Of a stretch of 64,000 nt of DNA, positions 11,397 to 47,937 are shown one piece after another. The first letter of the stretch is position 1. Each line of letters opens with the position of its first letter. Under the pieces are notes generated by a model. It was given only the letters and a program-made list of their open reading frames with translations. It did not search any database and had not been told where the DNA came from. Location: NCBI GenBank assembly GCA_963734525.1, contig CAVTHI010000009.1, positions 67,429 to 131,428 on the forward strand, written 5' to 3'. The position numbers were made by a program, and so were the translations under genes. Source of the DNA: an uncultured archaeon (GTDB lineage Archaea > Micrarchaeota > Micrarchaeia > Anstonellales > Bilamarchaeaceae).

Positions 11397-11397
11397 C

Positions 11398-13244: not shown

Positions 13245-13248
13245 TATA

Positions 13249-20325: not shown

Positions 20326-20335
20326 GGTGTTGACG

Positions 20336-28741: not shown

Positions 28742-29345
28742 CCTGCATGCGATACTCGCGTACATACAGCAGAACTCCACGGGCGGATTCAGGAACACCC
28801 AGGATGCGGCGTCGTTCGCCGACCGCAACGCCTCCTTGTTCAGAACGAGCGGGTGGTTCAATGCGAGGGCCAGGACACGGGCCGAGCTCGAGGCGGCCGC
28901 AAGAAGGGCGGTGCCGCAGGCTCCGGGCCGCGCCACCGCCGGAGCGCAGACGCCTGCGACGACGAGGGAATTCCCCGGCGTGACCGCGCTGGAGATGGTC
29001 CCCGAGCGCGCGCAGCCGTCACAGCAGGCGCCGGTCACGGTGACGCTCGAGCTGACGGCGCAGCAGCGCCAGCAGGCTGGCGCGTTCTATTCGAGCGAGC
29101 GCGGGCAGGCTCTCGGCACGATGATTGACGGCCTGTTTGGACGGCATGTATTCGCCGGGGAGCTCAGACAGGGCGATTCTCGCCAAGCTTTCGGAGAACC
29201 GGCGACAGTCGATGGGAATGTCACCGCGCCCGAGCGGGCAAGGACTGCTGTTCGCGAGGAGATATTCAGGATCCTCATGAGCACCAAGCGGGCCGATGTC
29301 ACAATGAGGAGCAGGTGGGGTATTACGGTGACGGGCACGGGGTGA
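28410..29345 (+). CDS. G2 C-terminal continuation in a shifted frame (credible from about 28513)
   Basis: From LSIAGRQQVTVEDLVEMIGDNARAEG... onward the composition matches G2. The upstream part of this ORF (MREARTPRSGRGPRAS...) is junk. Changing the T3 run at 28513-28515 to T2 would fuse the frames. Confidence 0.75.
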   Translation: MREARTPRSGRGPRASCRRCFRSAGSRSARVRSRLSIAGRQQVTVEDLVEMIGDNARAEGVIGPSILVSATDRSMLGAADGPALARLVARYSDAQGGLMRWITENRDSITDLHAILAYIQQNSTGGFRNTQDAASFADRNASLFRTSGWFNARARTRAELEAAARRAVPQAPGRATAGAQTPATTREFPGVTALEMVPERAQPSQQAPVTVTLELTAQQRQQAGAFYSSERGQALGTMIDGLFGRHVFAGELRQGDSRQAFGEPATVDGNVTAPERARTAVREEIFRILMSTKRADVTMRSRWGITVTGTG

Positions 29346-29349
29346 CGCG

Positions 29350-29496
29350 ATGCGCGTGACGGTCGATATGGCAAGGGCCCGCGATCCGTGGCGCAACCGC
29401 ATAAGGCAGTTCACGCTGGAAAGGCAGCGCGCCGAGGCGGCGGCAAGGGGCGGAACAGGCCCGGGGGCCCAGGCCCAGCCGCCGAGGCGGCAGTAA
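29350..29496 (+). CDS. possible 48-aa ORF between G2 and G3 (below the track cutoff)
   Basis: My translation is MRVTVDMARARDPWRNRIRQFTLERQRAEAAARGGTGPGAQAQPPRRQ. It starts 5 nt after the G2 stop and ends 15 nt before the G3 ATG. No independent support. Confidence 0.25.
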   Translation: MRVTVDMARARDPWRNRIRQFTLERQRAEAAARGGTGPGAQAQPPRRQ

Positions 29497-29511
29497 GGAG
29501 AAGTGATTTGA

Positions 29512-32179: not shown

Positions 32180-35100
32180 ATGTCAGGGCCAAGGTTGAAA
32201 TGGAATACGGAATTGTCCGAGAGGGCGGCCGAGTATGCGAGAAGGCAGGCACAGGCGGCCATGTCGAATATCCCGTTCAAGCTCAAGGCCGCGCTGATTG
32301 GGGGCATGATGAGCATCGGCGAAGCGGCCGGTGCAAGCAATATAAACAGCGGCGGGGGAGATGGTATAATGGCCTTCCAGAAGATGCCCGGGAGGAGCGG
32401 CGGGTTGAAAGAGGCGGGGGAAACGCATGCCGTTGCGCCACATGAGTCCATCCGCATTGCCGTGCAGCAGGCGCAGGTCGCCACGGAGAAGCTGAGGGAG
32501 TTCATGCTCGGCGGGAACCAGGCCCGCGCAGAGGAATTCCTCAGGATTTACGACGACTGGACGCAAAGGGAGGAAAGCGAGTCCGGCGAATTCAACGACG
32601 CGTTCATGGTGGCGCTGCGGGAAAGGGTGATGAACGACCCCGAGCTGGGGCCGATATTCAACGCTTACTGGGGCGCGAGGACGACCGAAGACGGCGGGCT
32701 CGACCTCACGCAGCTTTGTGTCAGCGTGAGCGAGGTCTTCAGGGCGGCCGCATCCGGAAGCGCGGAAGCCATCGAGGAGCTACGCAGGCAATACGGCGAA
32801 TTCGCGGGGGCATTCGTCGACGGCATAGTGGCGGTCTATCAATCATCGCAGGGCGCGGAGGAAGGCATCGCGCAAGCCGTCCCCGTCCCGGTGAGGACCG
32901 AGGACCAGACCGAAACGGACGCGGGCCGCGCAGCAGATTTCATCAGGAATTTCGCGCGCTCTAGCGACGAGGAGGACAGCCGCGGCCACGACCAGGCATA
33001 TTACCTCGGCCAGCTTATGGGGATACTCGCGAGGTACCGCGACGGCGACGGATTCGATTCGTCGTTCCTTGGCGCGCTCCTGCGGAGGCTGGGGGAGCGC
33101 GAGAGGGCCGTGCTCGAAGGGTTCGAGAGAAGGGTGGGAATAGGCGAGGGCGAATCGCTGACATTCTCAAATTTCGAGCGGTTCCTTGAGGATGTGGGGA
33201 TTGTCTCGCGCGAGCTGCGCGCCGGCGAGCAGCAGTCCGTCAACCTTGCCAACCTGCGCACGCGTTACGGGGATGCGTTCGTGACTGCTATGCAGAGGCT
33301 GTTGCCCGCCCAGGAGCCGATGCACCTTGCCACTCTTTCGATATTACGGGAGAAAATAGACGCCATTCGAGCGTTTGCAAGGGAGAGGCATATCGGCCTT
33401 TCGACGATGCAAATCAGCGGCAGGACGCTTGATGAATGGGAGGGGGAGCTCGAGGAACTGGAGGCGCAGGGCGAAGACGCGGACCAGGAAGCGATAAACA
33501 CCATGAACGGCAGCCTGCCCTCCGAGAATGCGCTCTTGCGGGAGGAGCGCGAGGCGCGGAGGATATCCTCCAGGCTCGACATACTCATCAACGGGACGCG
33601 CCCGTTCTACTATAATATAGGGGAAAGCTGGCTTTCGATGGCACGGAGCCTCCTCATGCAGGCCGACAACCGCGGGGCCGGGGCGGCATCCGGCGGATTC
33701 TTCACGATACTGTTCACGCGGGATTTAGGGGAGAGGGACATGCGCCTCGAGGACGTGGTGAGCACGGGCGTGGACGAGGAAAGCGGGGAGGAGACGAGCG
33801 AGGTCAGCACGGGCGTCCGCTCCACCATCGAGAGGATTTCCGACGCGATTCCACTACTGCGGAGCATCAGGCTCATGGTGAACGGCGGCTTCCGCGAATC
33901 CGACATGGACAGCACGCGGAGGATGATAAGCGAATTGCCGGATGATTTGTTCCCGCAGGAAGTGCGTGACGCGATGGAACACGGCTTCGAGCAGACGGCG
34001 CGGTCTGCGGCGGAAACAGGATACGACGAGGGCACGATAAGGAGCGCAATCACGATGGTGAGGCGCGCGTGCAGCGGACTTGGCCCGGAAATCCAGGACA
34101 GGCTCCTCATGGGGACCGTGTCGAGCTGGCATAACGACACGGGAGAGAGCGAGGAGGGCGCATCGAGGCTGCAGGCATTGGACGATGCGTATTCGCATAT
34201 CGCATCCGGCGCGGTGTTCGGCGAGTTCCAGGAATTCACCGGCCTGCTGGAGGAAAGGTTCCGGATGGAGGCCGAGTCAGCGCAGACCGGGCTCCCGGAT
34301 GAAACCGCATTCGACGGCATCCTCATCCGCGACGCGCGGACCAGGCTGACGAACGCCTCCGAGATTTTCCGCAACAGCCCCCTCGAGATGAGGTTCGCCA
34401 TTTTCCAGCTGTTCCAGGGCCAGCGCCCGTCCGGGGAGCTTTCAAGCGAGGACATCGGGCGCATCGCCGCGGTCATAAACGGGCTGGAAGGGATGCCTTC
34501 GGCATATGCCGCGCTGCTCATCCAGCGCGCCGGCCCGACGCTCTTTGCGGACTATGATGCGCAGAGCATAGAGGTCATCCTCACGGCAATCAGCTCATAC
34601 AGCCAGCCGCTCATCAACGCGGGCATGTACCGCGAGCTCGAGGAGTATTACGAAGGCATCGGCGACCGGATAGCGGACCTGTTCGTCGACGTGGTCGCGC
34701 TCAGGAACGTCGCGCGCGAACAGGGCGGCATGCTCCGCGACGTGCGCGTGAGGCTGCCTGGGGACAGGCCGGATTTCGCGGACCTGTACCTGCCTGCGAG
34801 CAGGATTTCTATCAGCCTTCCCAAAAGGATTTACGAGCGCTGGGTGTCGGAGGGCGCGGTCGTCCGCGTCACCCAGTCTCCGGACATCAGGGAGTCGCCC
34901 GCCCCTTCGCCGGGCATGGGCGCAATCGAGCGGGCGTTCTTCGGCCGCGATGCCATCCATATGGAGATGAACGTCCCGATGCCGCTCCTTTCGCTCCCGC
35001 TCGTCATCGAGAACCTCGGCGCCCTGCGCCCGCGCTATGCGATTCCTGTCGAGGAGATGAACGAGCTCTGGGCCGACGCCTCGGGGGCGGTGCATTCCGT

Positions 35101-37096
35101 CACGGGGCCGGACCAGGATGCGATGGACTATTCTTTCGGAGAAGCAGTCGGCCAGCGGGGCGGCGGAAGGGACTGGTCGCAGAGCGTCTACGGCACGGGC
35201 GGCGACGGCCAGCAGCGCATTCTCGGCAACCTCAGCTGGAACAACCAGCCCCTCGGCGGCATGACGCGCGAGGGCGAGCAGAGGAGCACCACCATGACGA
35301 GGGGCAGGTTCGACGTCGACGTCGAGGGCTCCATGCTCGAGCGCATGATGCTTTCCATGGATGCGACCGCGCCTTCGGGCTCGGACACCGCGGTATATTT
35401 CCTGAAGGAAGGCGACACGTACCGCTCATATGTCTTCCAGAGGTTCGGAGGCGGAAGCTTCGGGCTCGTGGATGTCAGGACGTTCACGGAAAACGAGGCG
35501 CGGATGTTCTACGAGCGCACGTTCGAAAGCCAGCCCTGGCGCCTCTACGGCGGCGCGAGAATCAGCGGCGGCGACGCGGGAGGCGCGCGCGAGGACTGGA
35601 TGGCGGCGATGGACGGGGCGGTCCTGTTCTCAGGGCTCCCGAGCGATGAGGAGCAGTTCCAGGGCGCAGGCGCCGCGGTCCAGGTGGGCACCGGCGGCGG
35701 GGCCGCCGATTACGAGCACACGCGCGGACAGCGGAGCGGCCTCATGGGCGCTTACATAAATCCTGAAGAGCGCGAATATTACGTCGGGCGACTCTATCTT
35801 AGCGCGCTCGAGCAAAGCGCGGAGAGGCCGGGCGTCGGCGTGCACGGCGAGTTCCAATATTTCAGGGCGAGGAGAGGGACTATCGACGCGTTCCTCGGAA
35901 GCAGGGAGGTCGGCGAGGAAGGCTCCGCGGCCGAGGACATAGAAGGCGGAATAATCGCGTCGTATCTCGGCGAAGGCTGGTGGGGCGGGGGGCGCGGCGG
36001 ATACATGATGAGCCAGATGATAAGGCCGCAGGCTGAGGGAACCGTGCCCGAGCTTGCGTTGACGCGCCAGCAGGTTGCGGGCGGTTCGGTGTATGGCGGC
36101 ACGGATTTGCGCGTGCTGGCCCTGACCGCGGCCGCATCAGCGGTATGGACGCAGGAGCTTGAGGACATGCCCGCGGACGCGACGGAAGGGGAATGGCAGC
36201 AGCACATGGCCGCGGCGCTCAGCATGTACGTCCCGGCTATCTATAGCAGGCTTATGGGCGGCGGCGTCCACGAGGAGGATTACTGGACCGGCGGCCACGG
36301 AATCGTGTCCGTTCTTTATCCGCTCGAGTGGCTGAGCGAACTGAGCGCGTTCGGAATCTATCTCCAGGGCGAAGGGGAGCATGAAGGCGAAACGCTCCCG
36401 ATTGTCGGCGCGAACGCCGAGGTGGTGCCAGGCCGCGGGACAAGGTTCAGGGTGCAGGCTTTCGGCGTGATAGGCGCCGGGGGCGGCGCTGACTTGCGCG
36501 CGTTCTTCGGGACCGAATCCGGATTCGATTTCTCGGTCAACGGCGTCTATACCGAGGGCATGGACACCGTGGGGCAGGGCATATCCGGCGCGCTGAGGCT
36601 GCGCCTCGGTGAGGACGAGGACGAATACAGGGTCAGGCTCATACTCGCAGGGGGATACTCCGAGCAGGAGGTCGCCGGGGAGACTGTTGTCAGCGGCGAA
36701 GGCGCGGGAATCGTCCGGGTGAATCTCGCGGAACCAGGGACCGAGCCGACCGTGACGGACATCCATGTGGGCGTGAGCGGCATCCACACCGAAGTGACGC
36801 CGGTGAGCCCGGACGAGGAGGCCGTCAGCGCGGACCAGGTCGATGCGCAGGCGGGCGTGACTGTCGGGACCGCGGACTGGAGCCTCGACGCGCACGCGGG
36901 CGTGCAGTACTGGACTGCGGAAGGGGACGAGAGGCTGTATATAACCGTGGGCGGGGAATACCAGCTCTGGAACGGCGAGGGCGACATCCAGGGGCTCAGC
37001 CTCGGGGGGAGTTTCAACGGGCTCGTCTATGAGGAGGGCGAGTCTAGGGCGAGCGATTACAACTTCACGATTAATCTGAGATTGCTGAACATGTGA
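32180..37096 (+). CDS. giant protein G4 (1638 aa), unknown function
   Basis: GGGGGA lies about 9 nt before the ATG. Starts MSGPRLKWN. The N-terminal ~170 aa are homologous to G5. Acidic helical middle. The C-terminal ~220+ aa are Gly/aromatic-rich with alternating hydrophobic residues, ending ...YNFTINLRLLNM. Confidence 0.85.
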   Translation: MSGPRLKWNTELSERAAEYARRQAQAAMSNIPFKLKAALIGGMMSIGEAAGASNINSGGGDGIMAFQKMPGRSGGLKEAGETHAVAPHESIRIAVQQAQVATEKLREFMLGGNQARAEEFLRIYDDWTQREESESGEFNDAFMVALRERVMNDPELGPIFNAYWGARTTEDGGLDLTQLCVSVSEVFRAAASGSAEAIEELRRQYGEFAGAFVDGIVAVYQSSQGAEEGIAQAVPVPVRTEDQTETDAGRAADFIRNFARSSDEEDSRGHDQAYYLGQLMGILARYRDGDGFDSSFLGALLRRLGERERAVLEGFERRVGIGEGESLTFSNFERFLEDVGIVSRELRAGEQQSVNLANLRTRYGDAFVTAMQRLLPAQEPMHLATLSILREKIDAIRAFARERHIGLSTMQISGRTLDEWEGELEELEAQGEDADQEAINTMNGSLPSENALLREEREARRISSRLDILINGTRPFYYNIGESWLSMARSLLMQADNRGAGAASGGFFTILFTRDLGERDMRLEDVVSTGVDEESGEETSEVSTGVRSTIERISDAIPLLRSIRLMVNGGFRESDMDSTRRMISELPDDLFPQEVRDAMEHGFEQTARSAAETGYDEGTIRSAITMVRRACSGLGPEIQDRLLMGTVSSWHNDTGESEEGASRLQALDDAYSHIASGAVFGEFQEFTGLLEERFRMEAESAQTGLPDETAFDGILIRDARTRLTNASEIFRNSPLEMRFAIFQLFQGQRPSGELSSEDIGRIAAVINGLEGMPSAYAALLIQRAGPTLFADYDAQSIEVILTAISSYSQPLINAGMYRELEEYYEGIGDRIADLFVDVVALRNVAREQGGMLRDVRVRLPGDRPDFADLYLPASRISISLPKRIYERWVSEGAVVRVTQSPDIRESPAPSPGMGAIERAFFGRDAIHMEMNVPMPLLSLPLVIENLGALRPRYAIPVEEMNELWADASGAVHSVTGPDQDAMDYSFGEAVGQRGGGRDWSQSVYGTGGDGQQRILGNLSWNNQPLGGMTREGEQRSTTMTRGRFDVDVEGSMLERMMLSMDATAPSGSDTAVYFLKEGDTYRSYVFQRFGGGSFGLVDVRTFTENEARMFYERTFESQPWRLYGGARISGGDAGGAREDWMAAMDGAVLFSGLPSDEEQFQGAGAAVQVGTGGGAADYEHTRGQRSGLMGAYINPEEREYYVGRLYLSALEQSAERPGVGVHGEFQYFRARRGTIDAFLGSREVGEEGSAAEDIEGGIIASYLGEGWWGGGRGGYMMSQMIRPQAEGTVPELALTRQQVAGGSVYGGTDLRVLALTAAASAVWTQELEDMPADATEGEWQQHMAAALSMYVPAIYSRLMGGGVHEEDYWTGGHGIVSVLYPLEWLSELSAFGIYLQGEGEHEGETLPIVGANAEVVPGRGTRFRVQAFGVIGAGGGADLRAFFGTESGFDFSVNGVYTEGMDTVGQGISGALRLRLGEDEDEYRVRLILAGGYSEQEVAGETVVSGEGAGIVRVNLAEPGTEPTVTDIHVGVSGIHTEVTPVSPDEEAVSADQVDAQAGVTVGTADWSLDAHAGVQYWTAEGDERLYITVGGEYQLWNGEGDIQGLSLGGSFNGLVYEEGESRASDYNFTINLRLLNM

Positions 37097-37149: not shown

Positions 37150-37578
37150 ATGGAATGGACCGGAATACGATTATACAAGGCGGAGGCGGAATGCGTGTCC
37201 GACAGGAAGTTCGAGGGAATCGCGGCATCGCTCGACATCACCGGAATCGGCATGACCGGGGGCGGCGCGCTTAAAATCGATTTCACGCACACGACGAAAT
37301 ACCAGCCCGGAATCGCGATGATACGCTTTTGCGGGTTCGCGCTCGCGAAGGGGAAGAAGGCCGAGCTCGATTCGCTGCTTGCGGGGTGGAAAAAGGACAG
37401 GTTCCTGCCCAAGGACGTGTTCGAGACGCTCGTGAACCTCGCGAAATACTCCGCGGAGACCAACGGGGTGCTCGTGGCCAAGGCATTGAACATCGCACCG
37501 CCGCTGGTCGTCCCGAGGGTCCGCCTGGCAGAGCCGCAGCCCCGGATTCCGGCCCAGAAGGCCGGAAAAAAGAAGTAG
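37150..37578 (+). CDS. small conserved protein, possible SecB-like chaperone fold (paralog of 46865-47311)
   Basis: The track starts at GTG 37093, overlapping the G4 stop. ATG 37150 has GGGGGAG about 9 nt upstream and aligns with the paralog. Shared pattern: ALKIDFTHTTKYQP.IAMIRFCGFA... / GVILEFTYAVDYKP.IGSLRMTGEAF..., then NGVLVAKALNIAPPLVVP / NSIFLLRPFNLLPPFMPP, and a Lys-rich tail. Function is inferred only. Confidence 0.65.
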   Translation: MEWTGIRLYKAEAECVSDRKFEGIAASLDITGIGMTGGGALKIDFTHTTKYQPGIAMIRFCGFALAKGKKAELDSLLAGWKKDRFLPKDVFETLVNLAKYSAETNGVLVAKALNIAPPLVVPRVRLAEPQPRIPAQKAGKKK

Positions 37579-37632
37579 AAGGCAGCGGACCGCCCTTCCC
37601 GCGCAATCCTGAAGCGCAAACAGGATTTCCCG

Positions 37633-37670
37633 GTTTTTCCGGGCTTTTACCCGCTTTTTTCCCTGTTTCC
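37633..37670 (+). terminator. T-rich terminator after the small ORF
   Basis: ggtttttccgggcttttacccgcttttttccctgtttcc contains T5, T4 and T6 runs. Confidence 0.4.
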
Positions 37671-37916
37671 GGTTCCAGCCCCAGCAGTTGGGGGCGGCAT
37701 CGGGAGTTTTCAACAGAATTTCATATACACGAATTTCCTTTTTGAGTGACAACTCTTTATATTCTTTTCTGACCAATATACAACTCGGACAGACACAATA
37801 CTCGGTGGCAGAAGATTCCGGGCCATTGCAGCGCAAGAGCGGCCCGGAACGGAAAGGATTTCATACTAACTCAGAACCCGCCAGCGTGATTCGGGTTCTC
37901 AAGGAAGGATGCTCAT

Positions 37917-40900
37917 ATGGCCGGTCCGAGGTTGAAGCACGGGGAGGAAAAGGAGGTGCCAGAAGGCGCGCCGTCCGAACGCCGCAGCAGGCCGAATTCG
38001 GCAGCCTTTTCACGGCCAGGGTGGCGCGATTGGCCACCGCGACGCTTGCCGGAATTATGACGTTGGAAGGCATAACTAATTTAAATATCCTTAGTCCTAA
38101 TGTTGCCATGGCACAACCGAGGCGGAAGGGGGGCGCGGAACCAGAAGAGATCACAAGGCTCCAGGCACAGGCCGTGGATGCCGCAAATGCTTTTCGGGAT
38201 TATATCGTAGGAGGGGACCCGGCCAGGAGGCAGTTTTTCTGGACCACCTACAACCAGGCGTTCGGCGGTGCCACGCTGCACGACAACTCCACGTTCATGA
38301 CGAAGCTCTTCGAGGAGCTCGACCGCATCGGCAGGGACCCAGGGGTCCAGCCGTTGCTCGCCGCATTCACGGCGGACCGGGGAAGCCTCTTCGGCTTCCT
38401 CTGGAGCAATCCGGTGCATTTCACGGATTTCATCGATACCACTTACAACATCAGGCAGAGGCTCGAAGGGGGCACGGCGAGGCCCGCGGACATAACGAGG
38501 CTCTCCCGGCAGGTCCGCGAATCGCAGGGCAGGCCGGCCAGGGCGGACACCCAGGTCGGGCGCGTCCGCGCGGCGATGGAGGCCAACACGAGCCTCACCG
38601 TAGAAGACGCGGTGAGGGCGGAGCTGGAGAGGCCGAGCCGCGAGGAGGCGACGGCGAGATACGGCGACAACCTGACGCGCGAAGTGATTGCGCGCTCCCC
38701 AGGGCAGTTGGCAATCAGGGCGGCTGTCGCACTGCGCGACTTCATACTCACTGGGGACGAATCCAAGCGCACGCTTTTCCGCAGCATCTGGGACGCGAAC
38801 ACCACCCAGGCGTTCACCGACGCGTTCACAGCGGAATTCACGGCGAGGATTTACCGCGACAGCGGCTCGGGCCTCGCGGCGATTGCGCAGGCTTACAACA
38901 CCAGGCACAGCGGGACCGACCCGATAGCGTTCGCCACAATGATTACGCAGCTCTATGCGGCGGCGGGCTCGCGCACAGACACCACGCGCGAAATAGAGCA
39001 GATGCGCACGGCCGAAGGCACGAACGTCGTGGACCCGCTCCTGGCAATAGTGGCAAGGGGCATGGCGGGCAGGGCGATAACGCTCATGCGCGACGTGCTC
39101 GAGAACGGGACTCCGGCGTCACGGGACCAGTTCGTCGCTATATTGAACGGCAGGCTGGCGGTCATTGCGAACAACGCGGTCCAGATGCCGAACGTCGAGA
39201 ACAACGACGTGTTCTGGAACGAGTTCACGCGGCTTTACACCGCGGAAATCGGGCAGAGCAGCCGCCTTGCGACGCTGGTGCGGAGCTTCCAGAGGAATAT
39301 ACTCCCGATTGCAATCAGGGACATCTACACGGAGCTTGCGAGGGCGAGCCCGGACACTGCGAGGCTGAATGCGGATTACGGGCCTGACCTTGTGGGGCTC
39401 ATCGCGTCCAACACAGGCACGCTTTCGTGGATGGCGCGCCCGGATTCGGACTTGTCCTCGGAAATCACGAGGAGGTCGCGGGCGGAGGACCCGGCCGCGG
39501 TCCGCGTAAGCGGCGTCCGCCTGGCTCAGGGCGTTTCCAGGCCGGCGGCGCTTAGGGAGACTTATATCGCGCTCGTGCAGGAAAGGGCGGTCACGCGCAC
39601 GGTCGAGGCGCCGGACGTGACGGCCATACTCGAGCGGAATTTCGATTCGCTTTCATACCTTGCCGGAACGCCGGCCCAGGTCCAGAGGGAGATTGAGCGG
39701 AGGGCGAGGGCCAGGCCGCCGGATGCGGTTGCACAGCAGCTGCTCGCGCGCTTCCCCACAAACGCCGGAGCATCGCTCTCGGCCGCGTACACCGCGCTCC
39801 GCGACGCGCGGACGCGCAGGGCTGCGCTCGTAACGCAATACGGCCAGGAATTCGTGGACATCGTGGCGGCGAACCTCGACGGACTCCAGTGGGTCATGAG
39901 GCCCGTGGAAGAGATAGACAGCCAGATGCGCTCCAGGCGCGACGACGCGTTCGTCCGCTCGGTCAACACCAGGATAGGATATTCGGTCGGCACGCTCGCG
40001 CATGGCCTCCGCGACATCTATACCGAGTTCGGCCGGCCTACGCCGGACCGCGCAAGGCTGGACCAGACTTACGGCTCTGAACTCGTGACGCTCGTGGCGA
40101 CCAACCGCGCGAGCCTCGGATGGCTCGGAAGCGACCTCGCCACGGTGGAGAGGACGCTCCAGGACCCGAGCACGGACGCAACCACGCGCTCGCTGCAGCT
40201 CAAGCTTTACAGTTATACGCCGGTCCAGCTCGTTTCCGCAATCGCCCGCGCAAGAAGCGCAATCACCAGGCGCGGGCTCGCCCTTGCGGATGCGACAGAC
40301 GCATACGGCACGGTCTTCGTAGGCCCGGTCGTTTCGCGCCAGGCGGTCGTCACCCCGTCAATCTCGCCAGAGGTTGCGCAGCCCCTCCAGCAGGTGCTCG
40401 AATCCCGCGCGCTCGGCATAGTGCGGCAGTTCGAGGAAATCGACAGGCAGCTCCGCTGGCCCATCCTCGAGCCGGCGCGCGTGCTCATCCAGGAGCGCAT
40501 CAGGCTCTGGAGGCAGGAGAACGACGCAATCAGGCTGGAGGCCAGGCAGACGCAGGACCCGACCGCGCTTGCGGCGCTCGAAACACGGCAGGCGACGCTC
40601 ATCAACTCCATGCTCACGCCCGCAGAAATGCGCCGCTCGGTCGAAATGGCGTTCGCCATGGTGCACCTTGCGGAGACAGGCGGCGATATGAGCCGCGCGC
40701 CCAGCCTCAGCGACGTCACGACGACGGACCAGGACATCGGGACATTGAGGAGGCTCTCGGAGTGGTACCGCGGGCTGAGCACGACGGGGAAGCAGCCGGT
40801 GGTGGGCGAGGTCGTCTCGTCCGTGCTTTACCGCGCCGACCCGAACCTGTACCAGTTCATAACCGGGCTGTCCGAACCCGGATTCGTCAGCGCGATCTCG

Positions 40901-42661
40901 CGCGTATATTCGCTCACAAGGAGAATCGGCGGGGACAACAGGCAGACGCTGGTCGCCCTTTACGGCGAGCAGTTCGTGGCGCTCGTGGAATCGCAGGCGC
41001 CGCACCTGCGCATCCTTGAAAGCCCTTCGGTGATGGCGAACCCCGCGGCGACGATGGCAAGCCTCAGGCGTGGCGAGAACGAGCTTTACGCGAGCATAGT
41101 CGTCCGCGTCTACAGGGCCGTGTCGAGCCCGGCCGCAGGCGAGGACAGGGCGAGGATGGAGAGCCTCTTCGGGCCCGAGTTCGTGGCCGCAGTCGTGGCG
41201 AACCAGGCGCAGATGACAGCACTCGGAACGGGCACGGCAGGCCTTCCGGAGGTCCAGGCGCTCCCCGAATCCGTCAGGCGCGCACTCGCGGCCGCGTATC
41301 CGGCGGCTTACCAGAGAAGCATCGGGGCACTTGTCCGCGGATTCCGCAACCAGGAGGACTGGATGTTCAGGAGCATGTCCGCGGTGTACGCGGCCCTGCG
41401 CGAAAGGCCGGCCCGCGGGGCTTCGGCTGATGCGACGCAGGCGTACGCACAGCGCGTCAGGGAGCTGAATGCCGCATACGGCGACAGCTTCGTCGCTACT
41501 ATAAGCGAGAACATGGCGCAGTTCGAGTTCCTCCAGCGCCCGACTTCTTCGCCGAGGGACCTGGCCAACATCCCCCCCGAGCTCCGCGAACGGCTCAACA
41601 CCACTTTCGAAGGCGGGCCTGCGGTGGGCAGGGCGAGCTTCATGACGAACTTCCTGCGCGTATACGAGCAGCTGCCGAGGGTGTACACCCAGCTGCGCGG
41701 GGCGCTCGCGTTCTCGAACCCGACGGACACGCTGCCGACGACGCTCGCGAACGCCATCGCCTATTACCGCCAGCAGTTCGGAAGCAACAACTACCTCTTC
41801 AACCAGTACATCAACCTGGACCTCCTCAGCAGGAACATCCAGCGCATCGCACGCAGGTACAACGTCCAGCTTCCGCCGAACATCGCGGACGGCATCGATT
41901 CGCCGGAGGAGCTCTCGCAGTTCATCAGCACCGAAACCGGGAGGAGCCTGCTTGCGGCGGGAAGGACGTTCTATAACGATACCCTGCTCCCGCTGTACCA
42001 GCAGCAGAAGGTCGGACAACAACTTCCACCCGACGACCGGCGATTACACCGACGCGAACGTGACGAACCTGGTGAACCAGCTTTCCATCCTCGACGCGCT
42101 CTACCTCGGCGTGGCGCTCGAAAGCGTTTCGGGAACCGACAGCGCGTTCCAGCGGTCGGCCGCGACGGCGACCATGAACGCGATTCTCGTCATCTCGAAC
42201 CGCGACCCGTACCTCGTAGGGCCGTTCCTCCTCCAGGTGCTCCCGGCTATCCTGTCATGCTCGCAGGACGAGCGGACCATCGTCGCCGCGATAGAGGCGT
42301 TCAACGGGATATTCACCCAGAGGTACGAGACGGGAACGAGGGAAATCGCATACAGCAACGCCCTCAACCGCAGGTATTTCCTCGAGGTGTTCCAGCGCAT
42401 CGGCGACAGGCTCCCCGAGGTCACGAGCTCCTACGACCACAGCAGGCTCGAGGACGAGCTGCGCCTCACCCCGGAGCCCAGGACCGACGAGGGATACATG
42501 AGCCCGCTGCTCTACCGCTACAGGCCGGGCTTCTGGCAGGGCGACGGCCTCGAGGCGCTTCCGACGATGTACGGCCAGCAGGGCTCGCCGATACGCCTGC
42601 TTCCGAGGCCCACGATGCCGACAAGCCCGTTCCTGCCGGTTCCGGGAGGATTCACGATTGA
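37917..42661 (+). CDS. giant protein G5, N-terminal part (start ATG 37917; frame change near 37960-37980; credible to about 42013)
   Basis: AAGGAAGGA lies 8 nt before ATG 37917, which opens MAGPRLKHGEEKEV..., parallel to G4 MSGPRLKWN. That frame stops at 38058-38060. The tracked 37688 frame then reads RRAVRTPQQAEFGSLFTARVARLATATLAGIMTLEGITN..., homologous to G4. After LYQQQKV (about 42013) the tracked frame becomes Arg/Pro junk. Confidence 0.8.
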
Positions 42662-45600
42662 TTCGGGCGCGAGCGACATATTCAGCAGCATGTACGACCA
42701 GCTTCGGCCGCCGGTGGAAAGGATGTTCCGCCAGCGCGTGCCTGCCAGGTTCAGGATAGGCGCGCTCGGCGCATCGACGATTATACGCAGGATAAACCAG
42801 CTCTTCGGCCCGATGCCGGTCGATTACAACGATTACTGGCTTAGCGCCTTCGGCGAAGCCGGGGCATACTACGCGCACCAGGAGAGGGGGCCGACCTCGA
42901 CGAACAGGGGCGGCCTTGCAGGCGTCGGCGGAGGCCGCACGATCAGCGGCGGCGAAAGGGCGACCGCCAGGTGGACGCGCGACCAGACCGAAACCGCGAT
43001 TCCGGCCGGCGAAGGCCAGGCGCGGAGCGCCACGTCCACGACTTCGGATACCGTGGACATCAACGCATCGGCAGTCAGGCTGCCGCCCCCATTGTCGGGA
43101 CCGGTGCCGCTTCCGCTCCTGGGCGTCGTGCCGTACGACCTGTTCAGGATGGGCGAGGGAACCGGCTCGGCATACGTGGCGAGGCCGCAGTCCGAAGTCC
43201 AATCCGAGCTCGAGCGCAGGCGCGGAACCGGGGACCAGGTCGTCGCGAACATATTCACGCTCAGGCCGAACAACACCGCGGCGGCCCTTCTCGACACGTA
43301 CACCGAACTGCTCAAGACCGCGCCGGACCGCACTAGGCTGGAGCGGGATTACGGAAGGCCGTTCGTCGAGCTCGTCGCTGGCAACAGGCAGTACCTCAAC
43401 TGGGTCCTGTCGCAGTCACCCGAGATGGGCGTCGGAATACACCGCGCGAGGCAGGAATTCCATTACGAGAACTCGAGCACGACGCAGACCACCGCGCCGC
43501 CGGCAGGGCAGGCCGGGGACACTACGGTCACGGACACGCAGACGAGGGGCAGGACGAGGGGGCTCCTCGAGACCTACCAGAGGATTGCGCGCCAGTCCCA
43601 GACGGACATGCTCCTTTTCGTCGCGGGCGAGCACGTGCCCGAGCTTTCGTCGGCAGGCGGTGCAACATCCCAGCGCGGGGAGGACAGGCTCAAGACGAGG
43701 CTGTACTTCGTCACGCGCGAAGGCGACGTCTACCAGCTCGCATACGGCCTCGACACGAGGGCCCAGCTCCTCAACTACCTTTATGCCGGGGCGAACACCC
43801 AGCAGTTCCTCGCATCGGCGAGGGCTGTCGGGCGGCAGATGCTGACGGGCGACTCGGCGGCGGCCGGTTTCGACGGCGCGGCGGTGGGGTTCACCCTTCC
43901 GCGCTCGGGCGGGGATTCGTTCTCGTCCCTTGCGTTCGGCCAGCTTGTGCGCAGCATGAGGTACATGGACCCGGTCCACGCCGAGCAGGCCGCGGGCATG
44001 GCTGTCACCAGCCTCCTTGCGGACCGGAGGCAGAGGGACGTATATGCGGCGTTCTACCGCGGGGCGGAGATGATAACCGTCGACCAGCAGGACCGCCAGC
44101 ACATAACCGACACCAGGTTCGCTGAAGGGACCGGCGAGGTCATGTGGAGGCGCATGCGCATCGACCCCATGGCCTACCAGGCCGAGATAAGGGCGGCCGG
44201 CGGATACCCGGCGACCGTGGCGGCAAGGGGCCGCCTCGAATGGCGCCCCTCAAGATACCAGACCAACGCGCTCGGCGTCACGGCGGCCTACTCTCATATC
44301 GACCTGCTGCGCGAGATGAGGGCCGCGGGCGCGGATGCCAACGAAATTTACGGCGGATTGCAGACCGTCCTTACGAGCCTTTACGGCTGGTCCGAGGACA
44401 CGGCGAGGGACACCGGATGGCTCGCCGCGGGGAGCTACATGTACGCGCGCATGGAGAACTACACGATGCAGAATCCGGACGGCACCTACCGGACGCTGCC
44501 TTCGGGCCCGGAGGGGAACCCGGAGCAGCATTACGCGAGTGCCATGTTCATGTACTGGGCCCAGCGCCACGGCATACTCATGGGCGCGCAGAGGGTGCCG
44601 GGATGGACGAGGATATACGACAGGATAGACCAGGCCATGAGGCAGATACAGCAGAACCCGGCCAACGAGGCGACGATACTCGAAGGGCTTTCGCGCGCGC
44701 TGCGCGATGATTTGCGCAGGGACATCTGGCGCTTCGCCCTCGCATACGGGTATGACGGCGAGCGCGTCAGGATATACACCGTCGGAGGCGGCCAGTACGT
44801 CAACGATGAAACCGCATACGGGAACCTGTACAGCATGTTCATCTTCGGCAGGCCTGCGGCGGGATACGTGGACATCCTCGGCCACGCTTACGGGTATTCG
44901 CCCCTCGTCATCAGCGAGAACCCGGGCACGGCGGGGCAGTTCACCGTGACGCGCGGCAGGCAGACGCCGTTCGTCGACCTGTACACGGGGTTCGGCATCA
45001 TGGACTGGCCGAGCATCAGCCTGCAGAGGTACCAGAGGGAAGTGGCGATAACGAGCGCGCCGAACATCGCAGGGGCGGTGCGCGACGCCTACCGCGAACT
45101 CGGCGGCATGAGGAACAGGACGCGCCTCGTCCGCGACTACGGCGAATCCCTGGTCGCGCTGGTCGAGGAAGGCCGCGAGACGCTCAGCTGGATGATAAGG
45201 CCGGCCGCGCAGGTCCGAACCGAGATGCAGACGCGCCTCGGCCAGGACGACCCGATAGTGCTGTCGTTCCTCAACCTGCGCTCAGGACGGGAGAGCGGGG
45301 CGACGACGGTCAGCGCAGAGGACGCGGCCGCGCTCGTGGACATATTCACCGAGCTCCGGAAGGCCACGCCGAACCGCGAACGGCTCGAAACGAGGTATTC
45401 CCGCGAGCTCGTGGACCTTGTCGAGAGGAACAGCACGGACCTCGACTGGATGCTCCTCCCGGCAGACCGCATGAGAAGCGAATTCACGCGGAGGGCGCAG
45501 GCGAGAGGCTCGGTCGAAGCGAGGATGGCCGAGGTGTCATTGCCGGCCCCGCCCACCCAGGCGTCGCTAACAGGGCCCGAGGTCAAGACGCTCATGGAGC

Positions 45601-46709
45601 AGAACATGCTCGACGTGCTTGTCGGCGCAACAGGCGCGGATTCGCGCGTGGGCCTGAGCCCGGAGCGCTACGACATCCTGCTCGGAAGCCACCTCGGCAG
45701 CCCGGCAGGGAGGAGGGACAGGGCGACGACGTTCTACGTACTGCACACGCCGGTCTCGGAGCGCTCGGAGGCGAGGGGCTCGCTGGTCATCGGCGACCAG
45801 CAGGACCTCGACGAGTGGATGCGCCACGGCCACCAGATAGGGCGCGGCATTTCCCGCCTCGAAGTCGCGAGAACCGGAAGCGATTATACCTTCACGTTCT
45901 CGGGCGACAGGAGGCTTAGGGCGCTTACGGCCGAACGGTTCGTGGGAGGGATTACCGTCCCGCTCCGCGAATCCGAATTCAGGGTCGGAAGCAGCTGGAC
46001 GGTCGGCGGGCTGATGCAGGTCCTCCAGGACCACAGGCTCGACCTCCTCGCAGGCGCCATGTACGGAAGGCGCGAATACGGGAACGAGCGCTGGGACCAG
46101 TGGACCGTCACCGTTTCGGGCAGGCTGCAGGGCACGAACACCGCGACCGTCAGCGAGCAGTGGTACGGATACCTGTTCTTCAACCAGGCCACCAGGCAGG
46201 TGGTCGCCGCGAGCGGGGATGTGTTCAACAACGCCGAGGAGATGAGGCAGGTGTGCCAGACCCTCGGCGGGGCCGGGTGCAACAGCCTCTCGGACCTTTC
46301 GAGGACCACGGGCGGCGTCGGCCTCCAGTGGGCGCGGACGGACGTCGTCACGGGCGACCGGATGAGCTTCCACTTCTTCTTCGAAGGCGGCGTGGAGACC
46401 TACCGGCCGTGGAGCGGCGCGGGCTCAGGCACCGTGGACACGGGCGGGGGCAACACCGCCGCGGTGACAATCAACCCGCGCGACAACGCGTTCGTATTCC
46501 GCACCGGCGTAGGGTTCAACTACACCCAGCAGAGCCCCAACAGCACGATACCGAACATCTACTCGCTCACCTTGGGCGCGCAGAACGGCTCGTGGCCCCT
46601 CATACCCGGGGACGTCACGAGGCCGGAATACCTGCAGTCCTGGGGCACGTCGATGGAAACGGCCATACCGGGCTGGTCGCTCATGCTGCACGGCCGCGTG
46701 CAGTGGTAG
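41952..46709 (+). CDS. giant protein G5, C-terminal part (credible from about 42013; whole G5 about 2930 aa)
   Basis: From DNNFHPTTGDYTDANVTNLVNQLSILDAL... the composition is protein-like. Contains further ~50-aa repeats (43296-, 45087-, 45342-) and a beta-rich Gly/aromatic C-terminus ending ...GWSLMLHGRVQW. Changing GG to G at about 42011-42016 would fuse it to the previous frame. Confidence 0.8.
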   Translation: MRREGRSITIPCSRCTSSRRSDNNFHPTTGDYTDANVTNLVNQLSILDALYLGVALESVSGTDSAFQRSAATATMNAILVISNRDPYLVGPFLLQVLPAILSCSQDERTIVAAIEAFNGIFTQRYETGTREIAYSNALNRRYFLEVFQRIGDRLPEVTSSYDHSRLEDELRLTPEPRTDEGYMSPLLYRYRPGFWQGDGLEALPTMYGQQGSPIRLLPRPTMPTSPFLPVPGGFTIDSGASDIFSSMYDQLRPPVERMFRQRVPARFRIGALGASTIIRRINQLFGPMPVDYNDYWLSAFGEAGAYYAHQERGPTSTNRGGLAGVGGGRTISGGERATARWTRDQTETAIPAGEGQARSATSTTSDTVDINASAVRLPPPLSGPVPLPLLGVVPYDLFRMGEGTGSAYVARPQSEVQSELERRRGTGDQVVANIFTLRPNNTAAALLDTYTELLKTAPDRTRLERDYGRPFVELVAGNRQYLNWVLSQSPEMGVGIHRARQEFHYENSSTTQTTAPPAGQAGDTTVTDTQTRGRTRGLLETYQRIARQSQTDMLLFVAGEHVPELSSAGGATSQRGEDRLKTRLYFVTREGDVYQLAYGLDTRAQLLNYLYAGANTQQFLASARAVGRQMLTGDSAAAGFDGAAVGFTLPRSGGDSFSSLAFGQLVRSMRYMDPVHAEQAAGMAVTSLLADRRQRDVYAAFYRGAEMITVDQQDRQHITDTRFAEGTGEVMWRRMRIDPMAYQAEIRAAGGYPATVAARGRLEWRPSRYQTNALGVTAAYSHIDLLREMRAAGADANEIYGGLQTVLTSLYGWSEDTARDTGWLAAGSYMYARMENYTMQNPDGTYRTLPSGPEGNPEQHYASAMFMYWAQRHGILMGAQRVPGWTRIYDRIDQAMRQIQQNPANEATILEGLSRALRDDLRRDIWRFALAYGYDGERVRIYTVGGGQYVNDETAYGNLYSMFIFGRPAAGYVDILGHAYGYSPLVISENPGTAGQFTVTRGRQTPFVDLYTGFGIMDWPSISLQRYQREVAITSAPNIAGAVRDAYRELGGMRNRTRLVRDYGESLVALVEEGRETLSWMIRPAAQVRTEMQTRLGQDDPIVLSFLNLRSGRESGATTVSAEDAAALVDIFTELRKATPNRERLETRYSRELVDLVERNSTDLDWMLLPADRMRSEFTRRAQARGSVEARMAEVSLPAPPTQASLTGPEVKTLMEQNMLDVLVGATGADSRVGLSPERYDILLGSHLGSPAGRRDRATTFYVLHTPVSERSEARGSLVIGDQQDLDEWMRHGHQIGRGISRLEVARTGSDYTFTFSGDRRLRALTAERFVGGITVPLRESEFRVGSSWTVGGLMQVLQDHRLDLLAGAMYGRREYGNERWDQWTVTVSGRLQGTNTATVSEQWYGYLFFNQATRQVVAASGDVFNNAEEMRQVCQTLGGAGCNSLSDLSRTTGGVGLQWARTDVVTGDRMSFHFFFEGGVETYRPWSGAGSGTVDTGGGNTAAVTINPRDNAFVFRTGVGFNYTQQSPNSTIPNIYSLTLGAQNGSWPLIPGDVTRPEYLQSWGTSMETAIPGWSLMLHGRVQW

Positions 46710-46750
46710 TTTTTTTTTATTTTTATTTTTCCATTTTTCGCCTTTTTCCT
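46710..46750. terminator. bidirectional oligo-T/A region between convergent G5 and 46865-47311
   Basis: tttttttttatttttatttttccatttttcgcctttttcc directly follows the G5 stop. Confidence 0.5.
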
Positions 46751-46864: not shown

Positions 46865-47311
46865 CTACTTCTTCTTCACGGGCTTCTCCTTGGCAATGAC
46901 CTTGGCCTCGGTTGCAATCAAAGGAGGCATGAAGGGCGGGAGCAGGTTGAAGGGGCGGAGCAGGAATATGCTGTTCATGCCCGCGTTCGCGTTTATCATG
47001 TTGATGGCGGTCGCGCCGAACTCCATCGGGACGATTTTCGCCTTCTTGTATTCGACGAGCATCTTCTTGAGGTTCTCCGGGCTGTCGCGGCAGAACGCCT
47101 CGCCCGTCATCCTCAGCGAGCCGATGTCCGGCTTGTAGTCGACGGCATAGGTGAATTCGAGTATCACGCCGTCCGGCGCCTTCTGGGTGATTTTGTCGAC
47201 ATTGATGTTGATGTCGATGTTCGCAGGAACGCCGTCCTTTGCCTTCTTCACTTCGCCTCCCCGGAAAATAAGACCCATGACTTCAAGCATATTTATCCCG
47301 TCCATAACCAA
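46865..47311 (-). CDS. small conserved protein, possible SecB-like chaperone fold (paralog of 37150-37578)
   Basis: 148 aa, Lys-rich tail KEKPVKKK like its paralog (AQKAGKKK), shared beta-strand-like and LLPPF/IAPPL segments. Convergent with G5. Confidence 0.7.
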   Translation of the reverse strand: MVMDGINMLEVMGLIFRGGEVKKAKDGVPANIDININVDKITQKAPDGVILEFTYAVDYKPDIGSLRMTGEAFCRDSPENLKKMLVEYKKAKIVPMEFGATAINMINANAGMNSIFLLRPFNLLPPFMPPLIATEAKVIAKEKPVKKK

Positions 47312-47382
47312 TCTTGCAGAGAATAAAAAGCTTTCTGTTTAGGCAGGCCGGCGATGAGTCCGGGCGCCTCTTCGGCATCAGG

Positions 47383-47937
47383 CTATTGCCCCTCCTGCTG
47401 GCCCTCGCGCGTCGCCTGGTAGGCCTGGACCATCTCATTGCGCATATTCGTCAGGTAGGCATACATGGAGTTGTTCTCCCTAAGGTTCGAGCGGAACTGC
47501 CCGAGCATTTCCTCCTGCCGGGCGACGGGGAGAGTCTCATACTGGAACCGGTTTAGGCCCCGCTCCCCCAGCCATCCGGGGAATTCCCGGTCCTCGATTT
47601 CCTGCATCTGGTCCTGCGCCTGGGAAGCGTTGTAGGCCGCGTTGTGCATCTCGATGCCGAGGTCGATTTTCTTTGCGAGGGCCGGGTCGTTCCTCCCCTG
47701 GGCGAAACTGAAGATGGTCGGGAGGATTGCCTGCTTCACTGTCCCGGCATCCCCGTTCGCCCGCATCCGCTGCATTTCATTGAGCGTGTTCGCGACAATC
47801 GTCTCCCGCTCCTGCGGCGTGAGGTTCATCTGGTATCTCTGCTCGTACCTTGTAAGTTCCACGGTAACCGCCGCCCGGTCCGCCGCCGTCACCGGCGCAG
47901 GCGCATGATCAGCATTCGTTTGTGCCATCCAAACCAC
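47383..47937 (-). CDS. hypothetical protein (184 aa)
   Basis: Gln/Glu/Asn-rich protein-like composition. Same strand and tightly spaced with aTrm56 and the SecB-like ORF. No motif recognised. Confidence 0.5.
   Translation of the reverse strand: MVWMAQTNADHAPAPVTAADRAAVTVELTRYEQRYQMNLTPQERETIVANTLNEMQRMRANGDAGTVKQAILPTIFSFAQGRNDPALAKKIDLGIEMHNAAYNASQAQDQMQEIEDREFPGWLGERGLNRFQYETLPVARQEEMLGQFRSNLRENNSMYAYLTNMRNEMVQAYQATREGQQEGQ

What the first reader, a model, noticed from the sequence alone, without database searches (positions are those of the whole stretch)
46865..47311. Two paralogous ~145-aa proteins with a SecB-like pattern bracket G5
ORF 37150-37578 lies directly after G4 and before G5. 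ORF 46865-47311 is convergent with the G5 end. They align along their length: MEWTGIRLYKAEAE / LEVMGLIFRGGEVK; ALKIDFTHTTKYQPGIAMIRFCGFA / GVILEFTYAVDYKPDIGSLRMTGEAF; NGVLVAKALNIAPPLVVPRV / NSIFLLRPFNLLPPFMPPLI; both have Lys-rich tails. The order of four beta-like segments, a long helix and a hydrophobic ...PP... segment resembles E. coli SecB (...VVLRVTVTA...FLCEVQQGGIF...CPNILFPYARE...FPQLNLAPVNF), which I recall from memory. Dedicated holdases next to multi-thousand-residue substrates would make functional sense.
Basis: partly seen in the sequence, partly recalled or inferred. Interest (0 to 1): 0.6.

Follow-up and report, generated by a model that had tools for sequence, protein, structure and literature searches.

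The report
SecB-fold partners of giant archaeal proteins
Two small paralogous proteins next to giant secreted-protein genes in a Micrarchaeota (DPANN) archaeon belong to an undescribed, phylum-wide family whose predicted fold most resembles the bacterial export chaperone SecB, and each small-protein lineage has stayed paired with its own giant-protein family, which suggests dedicated helpers in a domain of life where no SecB is known.

Summary
ORF A (37150-37578, +) and ORF B (46865-47305, -) are true paralogs (BLASTP E=1e-14, ungapped over 124 aa).

- **Family.** They match no Pfam or NCBIfam model. The family occurs in 150 of 151 sampled Micrarchaeota genomes, usually as one "core" copy. A third, core paralog lies elsewhere in this genome.
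- **Fold.** AlphaFold models of B and of the core paralog (pLDDT about 85) show four meander beta-strands, two helices, then a conserved Pro-rich motif and a short Lys tail. In both Foldseek searches the top hits are SecB and the SecB-like chaperone Rv1957. The scores are modest (best E 5e-4, TM 0.3-0.47). Profile-profile comparison with SecB gives no signal above shuffled controls. This is a fold resemblance only, with no evidence of SecB family membership.
- **Link to giants.** A and B fall in a derived clade. 15-17 of its 20 members lie beside ORFs of 1,000 aa or more, against 3 of 48 core members. Sub-clades map one-to-one onto giant families: A with G4-type, B with G5-type, and two more pairs. 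The giants carry signal-peptide-like leaders, and TatC was not found.
- **Complication.** The core copy sits beside PriS, PolB, Orc1 or PolD genes, so its own role is unclear.

Best reading, at about 0.45: A and B are dedicated cytosolic chaperone or targeting partners of the giants.

The parts
37150..37578 (+). Small paralog A (142 aa), clade I, A sub-clade. It lies 54 nt downstream of G4 on the same strand.
   Evidence: Translation. Paralogy to B E=1e-14. 8 close homologs. The tree places it with L099 and L095 members, which also flank G4-type giants.
46865..47305 (-). Small paralog B (146 aa from ATG 47305; the ORF runs from TTG 47311), clade I, B sub-clade. It is convergent with the 3' end of G5.
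   Evidence: Translation. 57 homologs at >=50% identity, all Micrarchaeota where named. AF2 model pLDDT 84.6. Foldseek top hits are SecB-like. A B-type gene lies at the 3' end of the G5-type giant in 11 of 12 genomes.
32180..37096 (+). Giant G4 (1638 aa), the inferred partner of A. It has a signal-peptide-like leader, 0.5% Lys and a beta-rich C-terminus.
   Evidence: Orthologs L099 (1448 aa, E=0), L095, L109 and L111. Leader and C-terminus. Composition. No Pfam match.
37917..46709 (+). Giant G5 (about 2,900 aa, read through two frame changes near 38058 and 42011-42020), the inferred partner of B.
   Evidence: The two ORFs 37688-42661 and 41952-46709 both match single ~2,800-aa proteins in L001, L089 and L091. 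The start MAGPRLK... at 37917 is followed by a frame change. C-terminal domain profile hits appear in 12 genomes of the genus.
46710..46750 (+). Oligo-T tract directly after the G5 stop. It is terminator-like and separates G5 from the convergent B.
   Evidence: Sequence read directly.
47322..47329 (-). TATA-like TTTTTATT, 17 nt upstream of ATG 47305 of B. It suggests B has its own promoter and a transcript with little or no leader.
   Evidence: Sequence read directly. Inference only.
37630..37670 (+). T-runs after the stop of A, terminator-like. They end the G4-A unit before the G5 promoter region.
   Evidence: Sequence read directly. Inference only.

Best explanation
A and B are cytosolic members of an undescribed Micrarchaeota-specific protein family.

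**Shown.** The family has a SecB-like beta4-alpha2 fold, followed by a conserved hydrophobic Pro-rich motif (L-x-L-x-P-P-x-x-P-P) and a short basic tail. The family has one near-universal core copy. In the window's taxonomic family the core gene was duplicated several times, and each duplicate has stayed next to one family of giant proteins that carry signal-peptide-like leaders.

**Inferred.** Each duplicate is a dedicated partner of its giant: A for G4, B for G5. Most likely it acts as a holdase or targeting chaperone that keeps the multi-thousand-residue precursor export-competent. The variable beta-sheet and helix surface would recognise the client. The invariant Pro-rich motif and Lys tail would dock to a machinery or surface common to all paralogs, such as the Sec translocon, the membrane or the ribosome.
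For: 1. Paralogy and family. BLASTP E=1e-14. There are three paralogs in the genome. The family comprises 1,115 clusters at 50% identity, and 150 of 151 genomes have it. No Pfam family covers it.
2. Fold. Two independent AF2 models (pLDDT 84.6 and 85.1) have the same topology. SecB, Rv1957 and DUF1149 structures rank first in both Foldseek searches. For the core model all top-18 hits are of this kind, mostly as alignments of 115-143 columns, with best E 4.9e-4 and prob 1.00. Hotdog-fold hits are partial, at 60-75 columns.
3. Link to giants. The tree splits the family into two clades (SH-aLRT 95). An ORF of >=1000 aa lies within 1.5 kb for 15/20 clade-I members (17/20 counting fragmented giants), against 3/48 core members.
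4. One-to-one pairing of sub-clades with giant families. B pairs with G5-type in 6/6 loci, plus 7 of 8 further genomes. A pairs with G4-type. A third sub-clade pairs with a third giant family in 5/5 loci, always immediately downstream on the same strand, 21-51 nt apart or overlapping by up to 31 nt. A fourth pair and a further one in G160 also exist.
5. The clients look exported. They have a long Arg-rich n-region, a hydrophobic h-region and a conserved ...G-G-D-x-A-M-A-[QE] motif. TatC was not found in 21 relatives, which implies Sec.
6. The folded domain is near neutral (mean net charge -0.3 to -0.8), and the exposed strand faces are N/S/T/E-rich, unlike DNA-binding sheets.
7. Precedent from established knowledge: SecB-like paralogs dedicated to one neighbouring client exist in bacterial TAC systems (Rv1957, PDB 5mtw), which is the top structural hit.
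Against: - Fold similarity is modest (TM 0.30-0.47, rmsd 4-9 A), and there is no sequence-profile signal to SecB.
- Archaea have no SecA, and the tail here is basic, whereas the SecB tail is acidic.
- The core paralog is found next to PriS, PolB, Orc1/Cdc6 and PolD-DP2 in different lineages. This hints at a role in replication, not export.
- B is convergent with G5 and has its own promoter-like element, so it is not co-transcribed with G5.
- All B/G5 pairs come from one genus, so shared ancestry inflates the counts.
- No binding, oligomeric state or expression data exist.
Confidence: 0.45

Rival explanations
1. The family is a DNA-replication or nucleic-acid-associated factor. The core copy works with primase, polymerase or Orc1, with the Lys tail contacting DNA or RNA. 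The giant-linked copies would then act on nucleic acid at or for the giant genes, for example in transcription or mRNA handling of very long genes, and would not act on the giant proteins.
For: Immediate neighbours of 48 core members include PriS (11), PolB (9, usually directly downstream on the same strand), Orc1/Cdc6 (about 6), PolD DP2 (1) and gyrase A (1). The short C-terminal tails are basic. The core copy is universal and highly conserved.
Against: No DNA- or RNA-binding fold (PC4, Whirly, Pur-alpha, OB, Alba) appears in the top 50 Foldseek hits of either model. The folded domain is near neutral with polar, uncharged exposed strand faces. Other lineages have the core copy next to metallo-beta-lactamase genes instead. 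Bacterial secB is also found beside dnaQ in a Rhizobium plasmid record, so such adjacency need not be functional. This reading does not explain the one-to-one pairing of sub-clades with giant families.
Confidence: 0.17
2. A and B are partners of the giants but not chaperones. They could be stoichiometric structural subunits, assembly or anchoring adaptors, or regulators or inhibitors that hold the giant inactive until export. This would resemble an immunity or plug protein.
For: The same co-diversification evidence applies. The third sub-clade is always immediately downstream and co-oriented, like a cognate accessory gene. The conserved disordered Pro-rich motif looks like a short linear docking motif.
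Against: The small proteins have no signal peptide, because strand 1 starts at the N-terminus. They would therefore not travel with a Sec-exported giant. Immunity proteins are normally hypervariable and lack a universal housekeeping paralog. The best fold match is a chaperone family.
Confidence: 0.2
3. The adjacency is inherited gene order without a functional link. The giant-gene island inserted next to pre-existing copies of a housekeeping gene, and the arrangement persists in closely related genomes.
For: All clade-I members sampled come from one taxonomic family, and all B/G5 pairs from one genus. B also keeps the housekeeping neighbours Trm56 and phosphoglucomutase in the window and in L001 and L003. 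B is convergent with G5 and has its own promoter-like element.
Against: At least four different small-protein sub-clades each sit beside a different giant family, in different arrangements (same-strand downstream, convergent, opposite strand). In the genus, B-type copies were seen only in genomes that also have the G5-type giant. Extra copies of a 130-aa gene retained only beside giants are hard to explain by drift.
Confidence: 0.13

Closest known systems
SecB, the bacterial export chaperone (PF02556; PDB 1qyn, 1fx3, 1ozb, 5jtl)
   Same: Size is about 130-150 aa. The order of elements is four meander beta-strands, then helix, helix, then an extended segment with an L-x-L-x-P motif. It is cytosolic with no signal peptide. 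It is the top structural match in both Foldseek searches. It is proposed to act on long precursors carrying signal-peptide-like leaders.
   Different: There is no sequence or profile similarity, and TM-scores are below 0.5. The tail is basic instead of acidic. Archaea have no SecA to dock to. The oligomeric state is unknown. The family is restricted to Micrarchaeota as far as named records show.
SecB-like chaperones of tripartite toxin-antitoxin-chaperone (TAC) systems, e.g. M. tuberculosis Rv1957 (PDB 5mtw)
   Same: Best Foldseek hit: E 4.9e-4 to 6e-3, TM up to 0.47, with alignments of up to 143 columns for the core-paralog model. It shows the principle of a SecB-fold paralog that specialises on a single client encoded next door.
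   Different: The clients here are giant secreted proteins, not antitoxins. No toxin-antitoxin genes flank A or B. No chaperone-addiction segment has been identified.
DUF1149 / SP1558-type proteins (PDB 2o2a, 2hng)
   Same: Small proteins that recur among the top Foldseek hits alongside SecB (TM about 0.3-0.4), which suggests a similar beta4-alpha fold.
   Different: They come from streptococci (2o2a Streptococcus agalactiae, 2hng S. pneumoniae), both deposited as proteins of unknown function. There is no sequence similarity and no known link to giant proteins.
Dedicated signal-peptide or secretion chaperones in general (Tat REMPs such as TorD/NapD; type III secretion class I chaperones)
   Same: The concept is the same: a small cytosolic protein encoded beside one large exported client and specific for it.
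   Different: The folds are different. TatC was not found in 21 relatives. No injectisome genes were seen in the window.

Membership tests
SecB (PF02556) | Match to the family's sequence model | tested here: not met
   No Pfam hit for A, B or 46 diverse members, even at loose thresholds. PF02556 finds nothing in the whole genome at E<=10.
SecB (PF02556) | Profile-profile similarity to a SecB alignment | tested here: not met
   hhalign of a 138-sequence family alignment against 14 diverse SecB sequences gives probability 1.35% and score 18.7. Reversed and shuffled SecB controls score 10-17.8.
SecB (PF02556) | beta1-4 meander sheet followed by two helices (SecB fold) | tested here: inconclusive
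   The element order is the same in two AF2 models. SecB and Rv1957 are the top Foldseek hits in both searches, but TM is 0.30-0.47 and best E is 4.9e-4.
SecB (PF02556) | Homotetramer (dimer of dimers) | not testable with these tools
   Only monomer prediction was available.
SecB (PF02556) | Acidic C-terminal region and sheet surface that dock to SecA | tested here: not met
   Tails are basic (mean net charge +2.2 to +3.4) and the domain is near neutral. Archaea lack SecA (established knowledge).
SecB (PF02556) | Binds unfolded precursors and keeps them export-competent | not testable with these tools
   Needs biochemistry.
TAC SecB-like chaperone (Rv1957 type) | Encoded next to its single dedicated client | tested here: met
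   15-17 of 20 clade-I members lie beside a giant ORF, and sub-clades pair one-to-one with giant families. That the giant is the client is inferred.
TAC SecB-like chaperone (Rv1957 type) | Adjacent toxin-antitoxin pair with a chaperone-addiction extension on the antitoxin | tested here: not met
   The neighbours of A and B are giants, Trm56 and phosphoglucomutase. A PIN/RHH pair three to four genes upstream of B in L003 is not conserved.
PC4 / Whirly / Pur-alpha ssDNA-binding beta4-alpha fold | Structural match to members of that fold, with a basic or aromatic concave sheet | tested here: not met
   None appear among the top 50 Foldseek PDB hits of either model. The exposed strand faces are N/S/T/E-rich.

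The most novel reading that the evidence does not exclude
Micrarchaeota possess an archaeal functional counterpart of SecB. This would be a phylum-wide cytosolic holdase whose conserved Pro-rich motif and Lys tail deliver precursors to the SecYE-beta translocon or the membrane without SecA. Lineage-specific duplicates would be dedicated to giant, nearly lysine-free surface proteins, presumably used in the episymbiotic lifestyle. That would give the first handle on post-translational protein export in archaea.
Probability: 0.2. Interest if true: 0.8.

Novelty: new variant of a known kind. Interest (0 to 1): 0.6.

Why it matters
Archaea have no known SecB or SecA, and how they export very large proteins post-translationally, if they do, is an open question. 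A SecB-fold family present in essentially every Micrarchaeota genome gives a concrete, testable candidate. It has no Pfam model, and full-text paper searches found no mention of it. Its duplicates are paired with specific giant exported proteins.

The giants are likely cell-surface proteins of an obligate episymbiont, so their dedicated partners are an entry point to how DPANN cells build their host-contact apparatus.

If the chaperone reading fails, the family is still a phylum-signature protein with a conserved link to replication genes, and that deserves characterisation.

Tried and rejected
- **Sequence libraries.** Pfam and NCBIfam scans of A, B, the core paralog and 46 diverse members returned nothing meaningful. 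PDB sequence searches with B and with the family profile found nothing.
- **SecB homology.** hhalign against a SecB alignment gave no signal above shuffled controls. The alignment was built from E. coli secB and ten plasmid-record SecB genes.
- **PC4/Whirly-like ssDNA binder.** I considered this because the core copy neighbours replication genes. I rejected it as the fold, since there are no such Foldseek hits and the domain is neutral.
- **Tat export.** I considered this because of the RR-rich leaders. TatC was not found in 21 relatives, while 11 of 14 control genomes were positive.
- **Missing RPA/SSB test.** The test with PF08646 is uninformative, because the model detects only 1 of 14 control genomes.
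- **Giant C-terminal domains.** They match nothing in PDB sequences or Pfam.
- **Literature.** Searches for SecB or SecB-like together with Micrarchaeota or DPANN found nothing relevant.

Full report
**1. The observation**

- The window is part of a Candidatus Micrarchaeota (DPANN) metagenome-assembled genome. The genome is 1.15 Mb in 9 contigs and 53% complete.
They align without a gap over 124 residues: 22% identity, 44% positives, E=1e-14 for the single comparison. The paralogy is therefore real.
- For B, the homolog alignments and the identical database protein P0003 (146 aa) put the start at ATG 47305, or at the conserved Met at 47290. A TATA-like TTTTTATT lies 17 nt upstream of ATG 47305, and an oligo-T tract follows the G5 stop.
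- A starts 54 nt after the G4 stop and is followed by T-runs. G5 starts only at 37917 (MAGPRLK...). A is thus arranged as the last gene of a G4-A unit, and B as a separate gene convergent with G5.

**2. The family**

- Neither protein, nor 46 diverse relatives, matches any Pfam or NCBIfam model. Neither matches any PDB sequence.
- A profile search finds a third paralog in the same genome (G000:C4:1069-1482, 137 aa), between Orc1/Cdc6 and the primase small subunit.
- Word-indexed searches give 57 close homologs of B, 8 of A and more than 259 of the third paralog. Every source name that names an organism is Micrarchaeota or Bilamarchaeum.
- An exhaustive HMMER search with a mixed profile finds 1,115 clusters at 50% identity.
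- In a sample of 151 Micrarchaeota genomes the family is present in 150, mostly as one copy. Extra copies occur in about 20 genomes, most of them in the window's own taxonomic family.
- All members share the same layout: four strands, a helix carrying W/Y-K-K-x-K-x-x-P, a long helix, an L-x-L-x-P-P-x-x-P-P motif, then a tail of about 14 residues with net charge +2 to +3.

**3. The fold**

- AlphaFold2 models of B (pLDDT 84.6) and of the core paralog (pLDDT 85.1) agree. Each has four long meander strands, a 14-residue helix and a 26-residue helix. The conserved Pro-rich motif and tail are at low confidence, that is, probably a flexible docking segment.
- Foldseek against the PDB puts SecB and the SecB-like chaperone Rv1957 first in both cases.
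  - For B, the best E is 6e-3 and TM is 0.3-0.4.
  - For the core paralog, all top-18 hits are SecB or Rv1957. The best E is 4.9e-4, prob is 1.00, TM is up to 0.47, and most alignments cover 115-143 columns.
  - Hotdog-fold proteins follow, but only through the sheet (60-75 columns).
  - No DNA-binding beta4-alpha folds appear in the top 50.
- At the sequence level there is nothing. The Pfam SecB model finds no match in the genome at E<=10. hhalign of a 138-sequence family alignment against 14 diverse SecB sequences gives probability 1.35% and score 18.7. This is indistinguishable from reversed or column-shuffled SecB controls (10-17.8).
- I therefore call this a SecB-like fold resemblance. 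It is reproducible but modest, and it is not SecB family membership.

**4. Link to giant genes**

I fetched 60 loci around family members from relatives, called ORFs and built a tree.

- The family splits into two clades (SH-aLRT 95). Clade I has 20 rows and contains A and B. Clade II has 48 rows and is the core copy.
- An ORF of at least 1,000 aa lies within 1.5 kb of 15/20 clade-I genes, or 17/20 counting giants split by frameshifts. The figure for core genes is 3/48, and two of those large ORFs cluster together with no similarity to the giant families and may be RNA polymerase subunits (a Rpb1-domain hit occurs among core-gene neighbours). Fisher p is 2e-8, but the rows are related and so not independent.
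- Clustering the giants by BLAST gives distinct families that map one-to-one on sub-clades of the small protein:

| Small-protein sub-clade | Giant family | Loci and arrangement |
|---|---|---|
| B | G5-type (~2,800 aa) | 6/6 loci; convergent in five |
| A | G4-type | window and L099: downstream, same strand; L095: opposite strand |
| Third sub-clade | Third giant family | 5/5 loci; immediately downstream on the same strand, 21-51 nt apart or overlapping by up to 31 nt |
| Fourth sub-clade | Giants of about 1,150-1,200 aa | two of its three members (L103, L105), about 1.1 kb upstream on the same strand |

- Searching the family's genomes with the G5 C-terminal domain finds 12 genomes with strong hits, all in the window's genus. 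In 11 of them a B-type gene lies at the giant's 3' end, almost always convergent. Of the 8 not analysed before, 7 have it and G154 does not.
- Genomes of the genus without the giant show no B-type copy in the B-weighted search.
- Another genome (G160) has a further paralog 54 nt downstream of a 1,922-aa giant.
- The giants are distant paralogs of one another, sharing an N-terminal module. The simplest history is therefore repeated duplication of giant-plus-small modules that have stayed paired.

**5. What the giants are**

- They have no Pfam domains, apart from a GDSL lipase domain in G3.
- Their N-termini form a long signal-peptide-like leader: an Arg-rich n-region of 25-35 residues, a hydrophobic segment, and a conserved N-I-[NK]-N-x-G-G-D-x-A-M-A-[QE] motif that resembles an AxA signal-peptidase site. 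The third giant family has conventional short signal peptides.
- Their C-termini are beta-rich and mostly end in Phe or Trp. This agrees with earlier notes on this window.
- TatC was not found in 21 relatives, 11 of them at least 90% complete, while 11 of 14 control genomes were positive. Export is therefore presumably through Sec.
- The small proteins have no signal peptide, because strand 1 begins at the N-terminus. They are therefore cytosolic.

**6. The complication**

The core copy is not linked to giants. Its immediate neighbours are:

- the primase small subunit, 11 times;
- PolB, 9 times, usually directly downstream on the same strand;
- Orc1/Cdc6, about 6 times;
- PolD DP2, once, in a locus where a G4-type giant follows on the other side;
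- gyrase A, once;
- metallo-beta-lactamase-fold proteins, 12 times.

This recurrent contact with four different replication genes could mean that the ancestral function lies in replication. Three points argue against a nucleic-acid-binding role:

- The folded domain is near neutral.
- The exposed strand faces are N/S/T/E-rich.
- No DNA-binding fold appears in the structure searches.

A test for absence of RPA was uninformative. I note that bacterial secB also lies next to dnaQ in a Rhizobium plasmid record, so such adjacency need not be functional.

**7. Mechanism proposed**

- Shown: the fold class, the family distribution, the paralog-specific pairing with giants, and the signal-peptide-like leaders on the giants.
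- Inferred: A and B bind their cognate giant precursor (G4 and G5) in the cytosol as holdase or targeting factors. They would do so through the divergent sheet and helix surface, and use the invariant Pro-rich motif and Lys tail to dock to a partner common to all paralogs.
- The closest precedent is the specialisation of SecB-fold chaperones on one neighbouring client in bacterial TAC systems.
- Confidence is about 0.45. The rivals are a non-chaperone structural or regulatory partner (0.2), a replication or nucleic-acid factor (0.17), and inherited synteny without function (0.13).

**8. Novelty and limits**

- No paper in the searchable library links SecB or SecB-like proteins to Micrarchaeota or DPANN. 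The scan's own index has no look-alike.
- The family is undescribed. If the reading holds, it is a new archaeal variant of the SecB-type chaperone principle.
- Limits:
  - TM-scores are below 0.5.
  - There are no oligomer or complex predictions.
  - All clade-I members seen so far belong to one taxonomic family.
  - The taxonomy of the most distant members is unknown.

Noticed in passing
window 20327-46709 (G2-G5); also L001:10406-18880 and L109: Giants G2-G5 are almost lysine-free: 0.3-0.6% K, K/(K+R) 0.03-0.06. Housekeeping genes of the window have K/(K+R) 0.4-0.6, and the small partners A and B have 0.70-0.81. The giant in L001 has 0.2% K, and two L109 giants have 0.0% K over 1590 and 918 aa. 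Orthologous giants in G050 and G144 have 5-7% K, so the depletion is lineage-specific and not explained by GC alone.
   Followed up: partly
G000:C4:1069-1482 (L007) and 48 loci in relatives: The core paralog of the family is present in 150 of 151 Micrarchaeota genomes. It recurrently sits beside the DNA primase small subunit, PolB, Orc1/Cdc6 or PolD DP2 in different lineages. It is a phylum-signature protein of unknown role with a replication-gene neighbourhood.
   Followed up: partly
window 32180-32400 and 37917-38300; N-termini of giants in L001, L003, L089, L091, L093, L095: The shared N-terminal module of the giants reads as an unusually long signal peptide. It has an Arg-rich n-region of 25-35 aa, an h-region, and a conserved N-I-[NK]-N-x-G-G-D-x-A-M-A-[QE] motif that may be a dedicated processing site. 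TatC was not found in 21 relatives.
   Followed up: partly
window 36900-37093 and 46500-46706; C-termini of 15 giants in relatives: The giants mostly end in Phe or Trp after alternating-hydrophobic beta-strand-like sequence. This is reminiscent of the C-terminal signal of bacterial outer-membrane beta-barrels, which is odd for an archaeon. There were no PDB or Pfam matches.
   Followed up: partly
window 37917-38060 and about 42011-42020: G5 is interrupted by two frame changes in this assembly. Orthologs in L001, L089 and L091 are single ORFs of about 2,800 aa. The cause could be an assembly error, a pseudogene or recoding; this was not resolved.
   Followed up: partly
window 47383-47937 (-): A 184-aa ORF lies between Trm56 and B and has no Pfam match. 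In L001 and L003, Trm56 is directly followed by the B-type gene, so this ORF may be lineage-specific or spurious.
   Followed up: no
L111 (G039:C6), 5503-13850: In a different taxonomic family, a core-clade copy lies between PolD DP2 (upstream) and a G4-type giant (downstream), all on one strand. This may be a snapshot of how the small gene first became associated with giants.
   Followed up: no
window 20327-32016 versus L091:1-7424: G2 and the GDSL-lipase protein G3 have syntenic homologs in G144. At least part of the giant-gene island is therefore conserved as a block in the genus.
   Followed up: no
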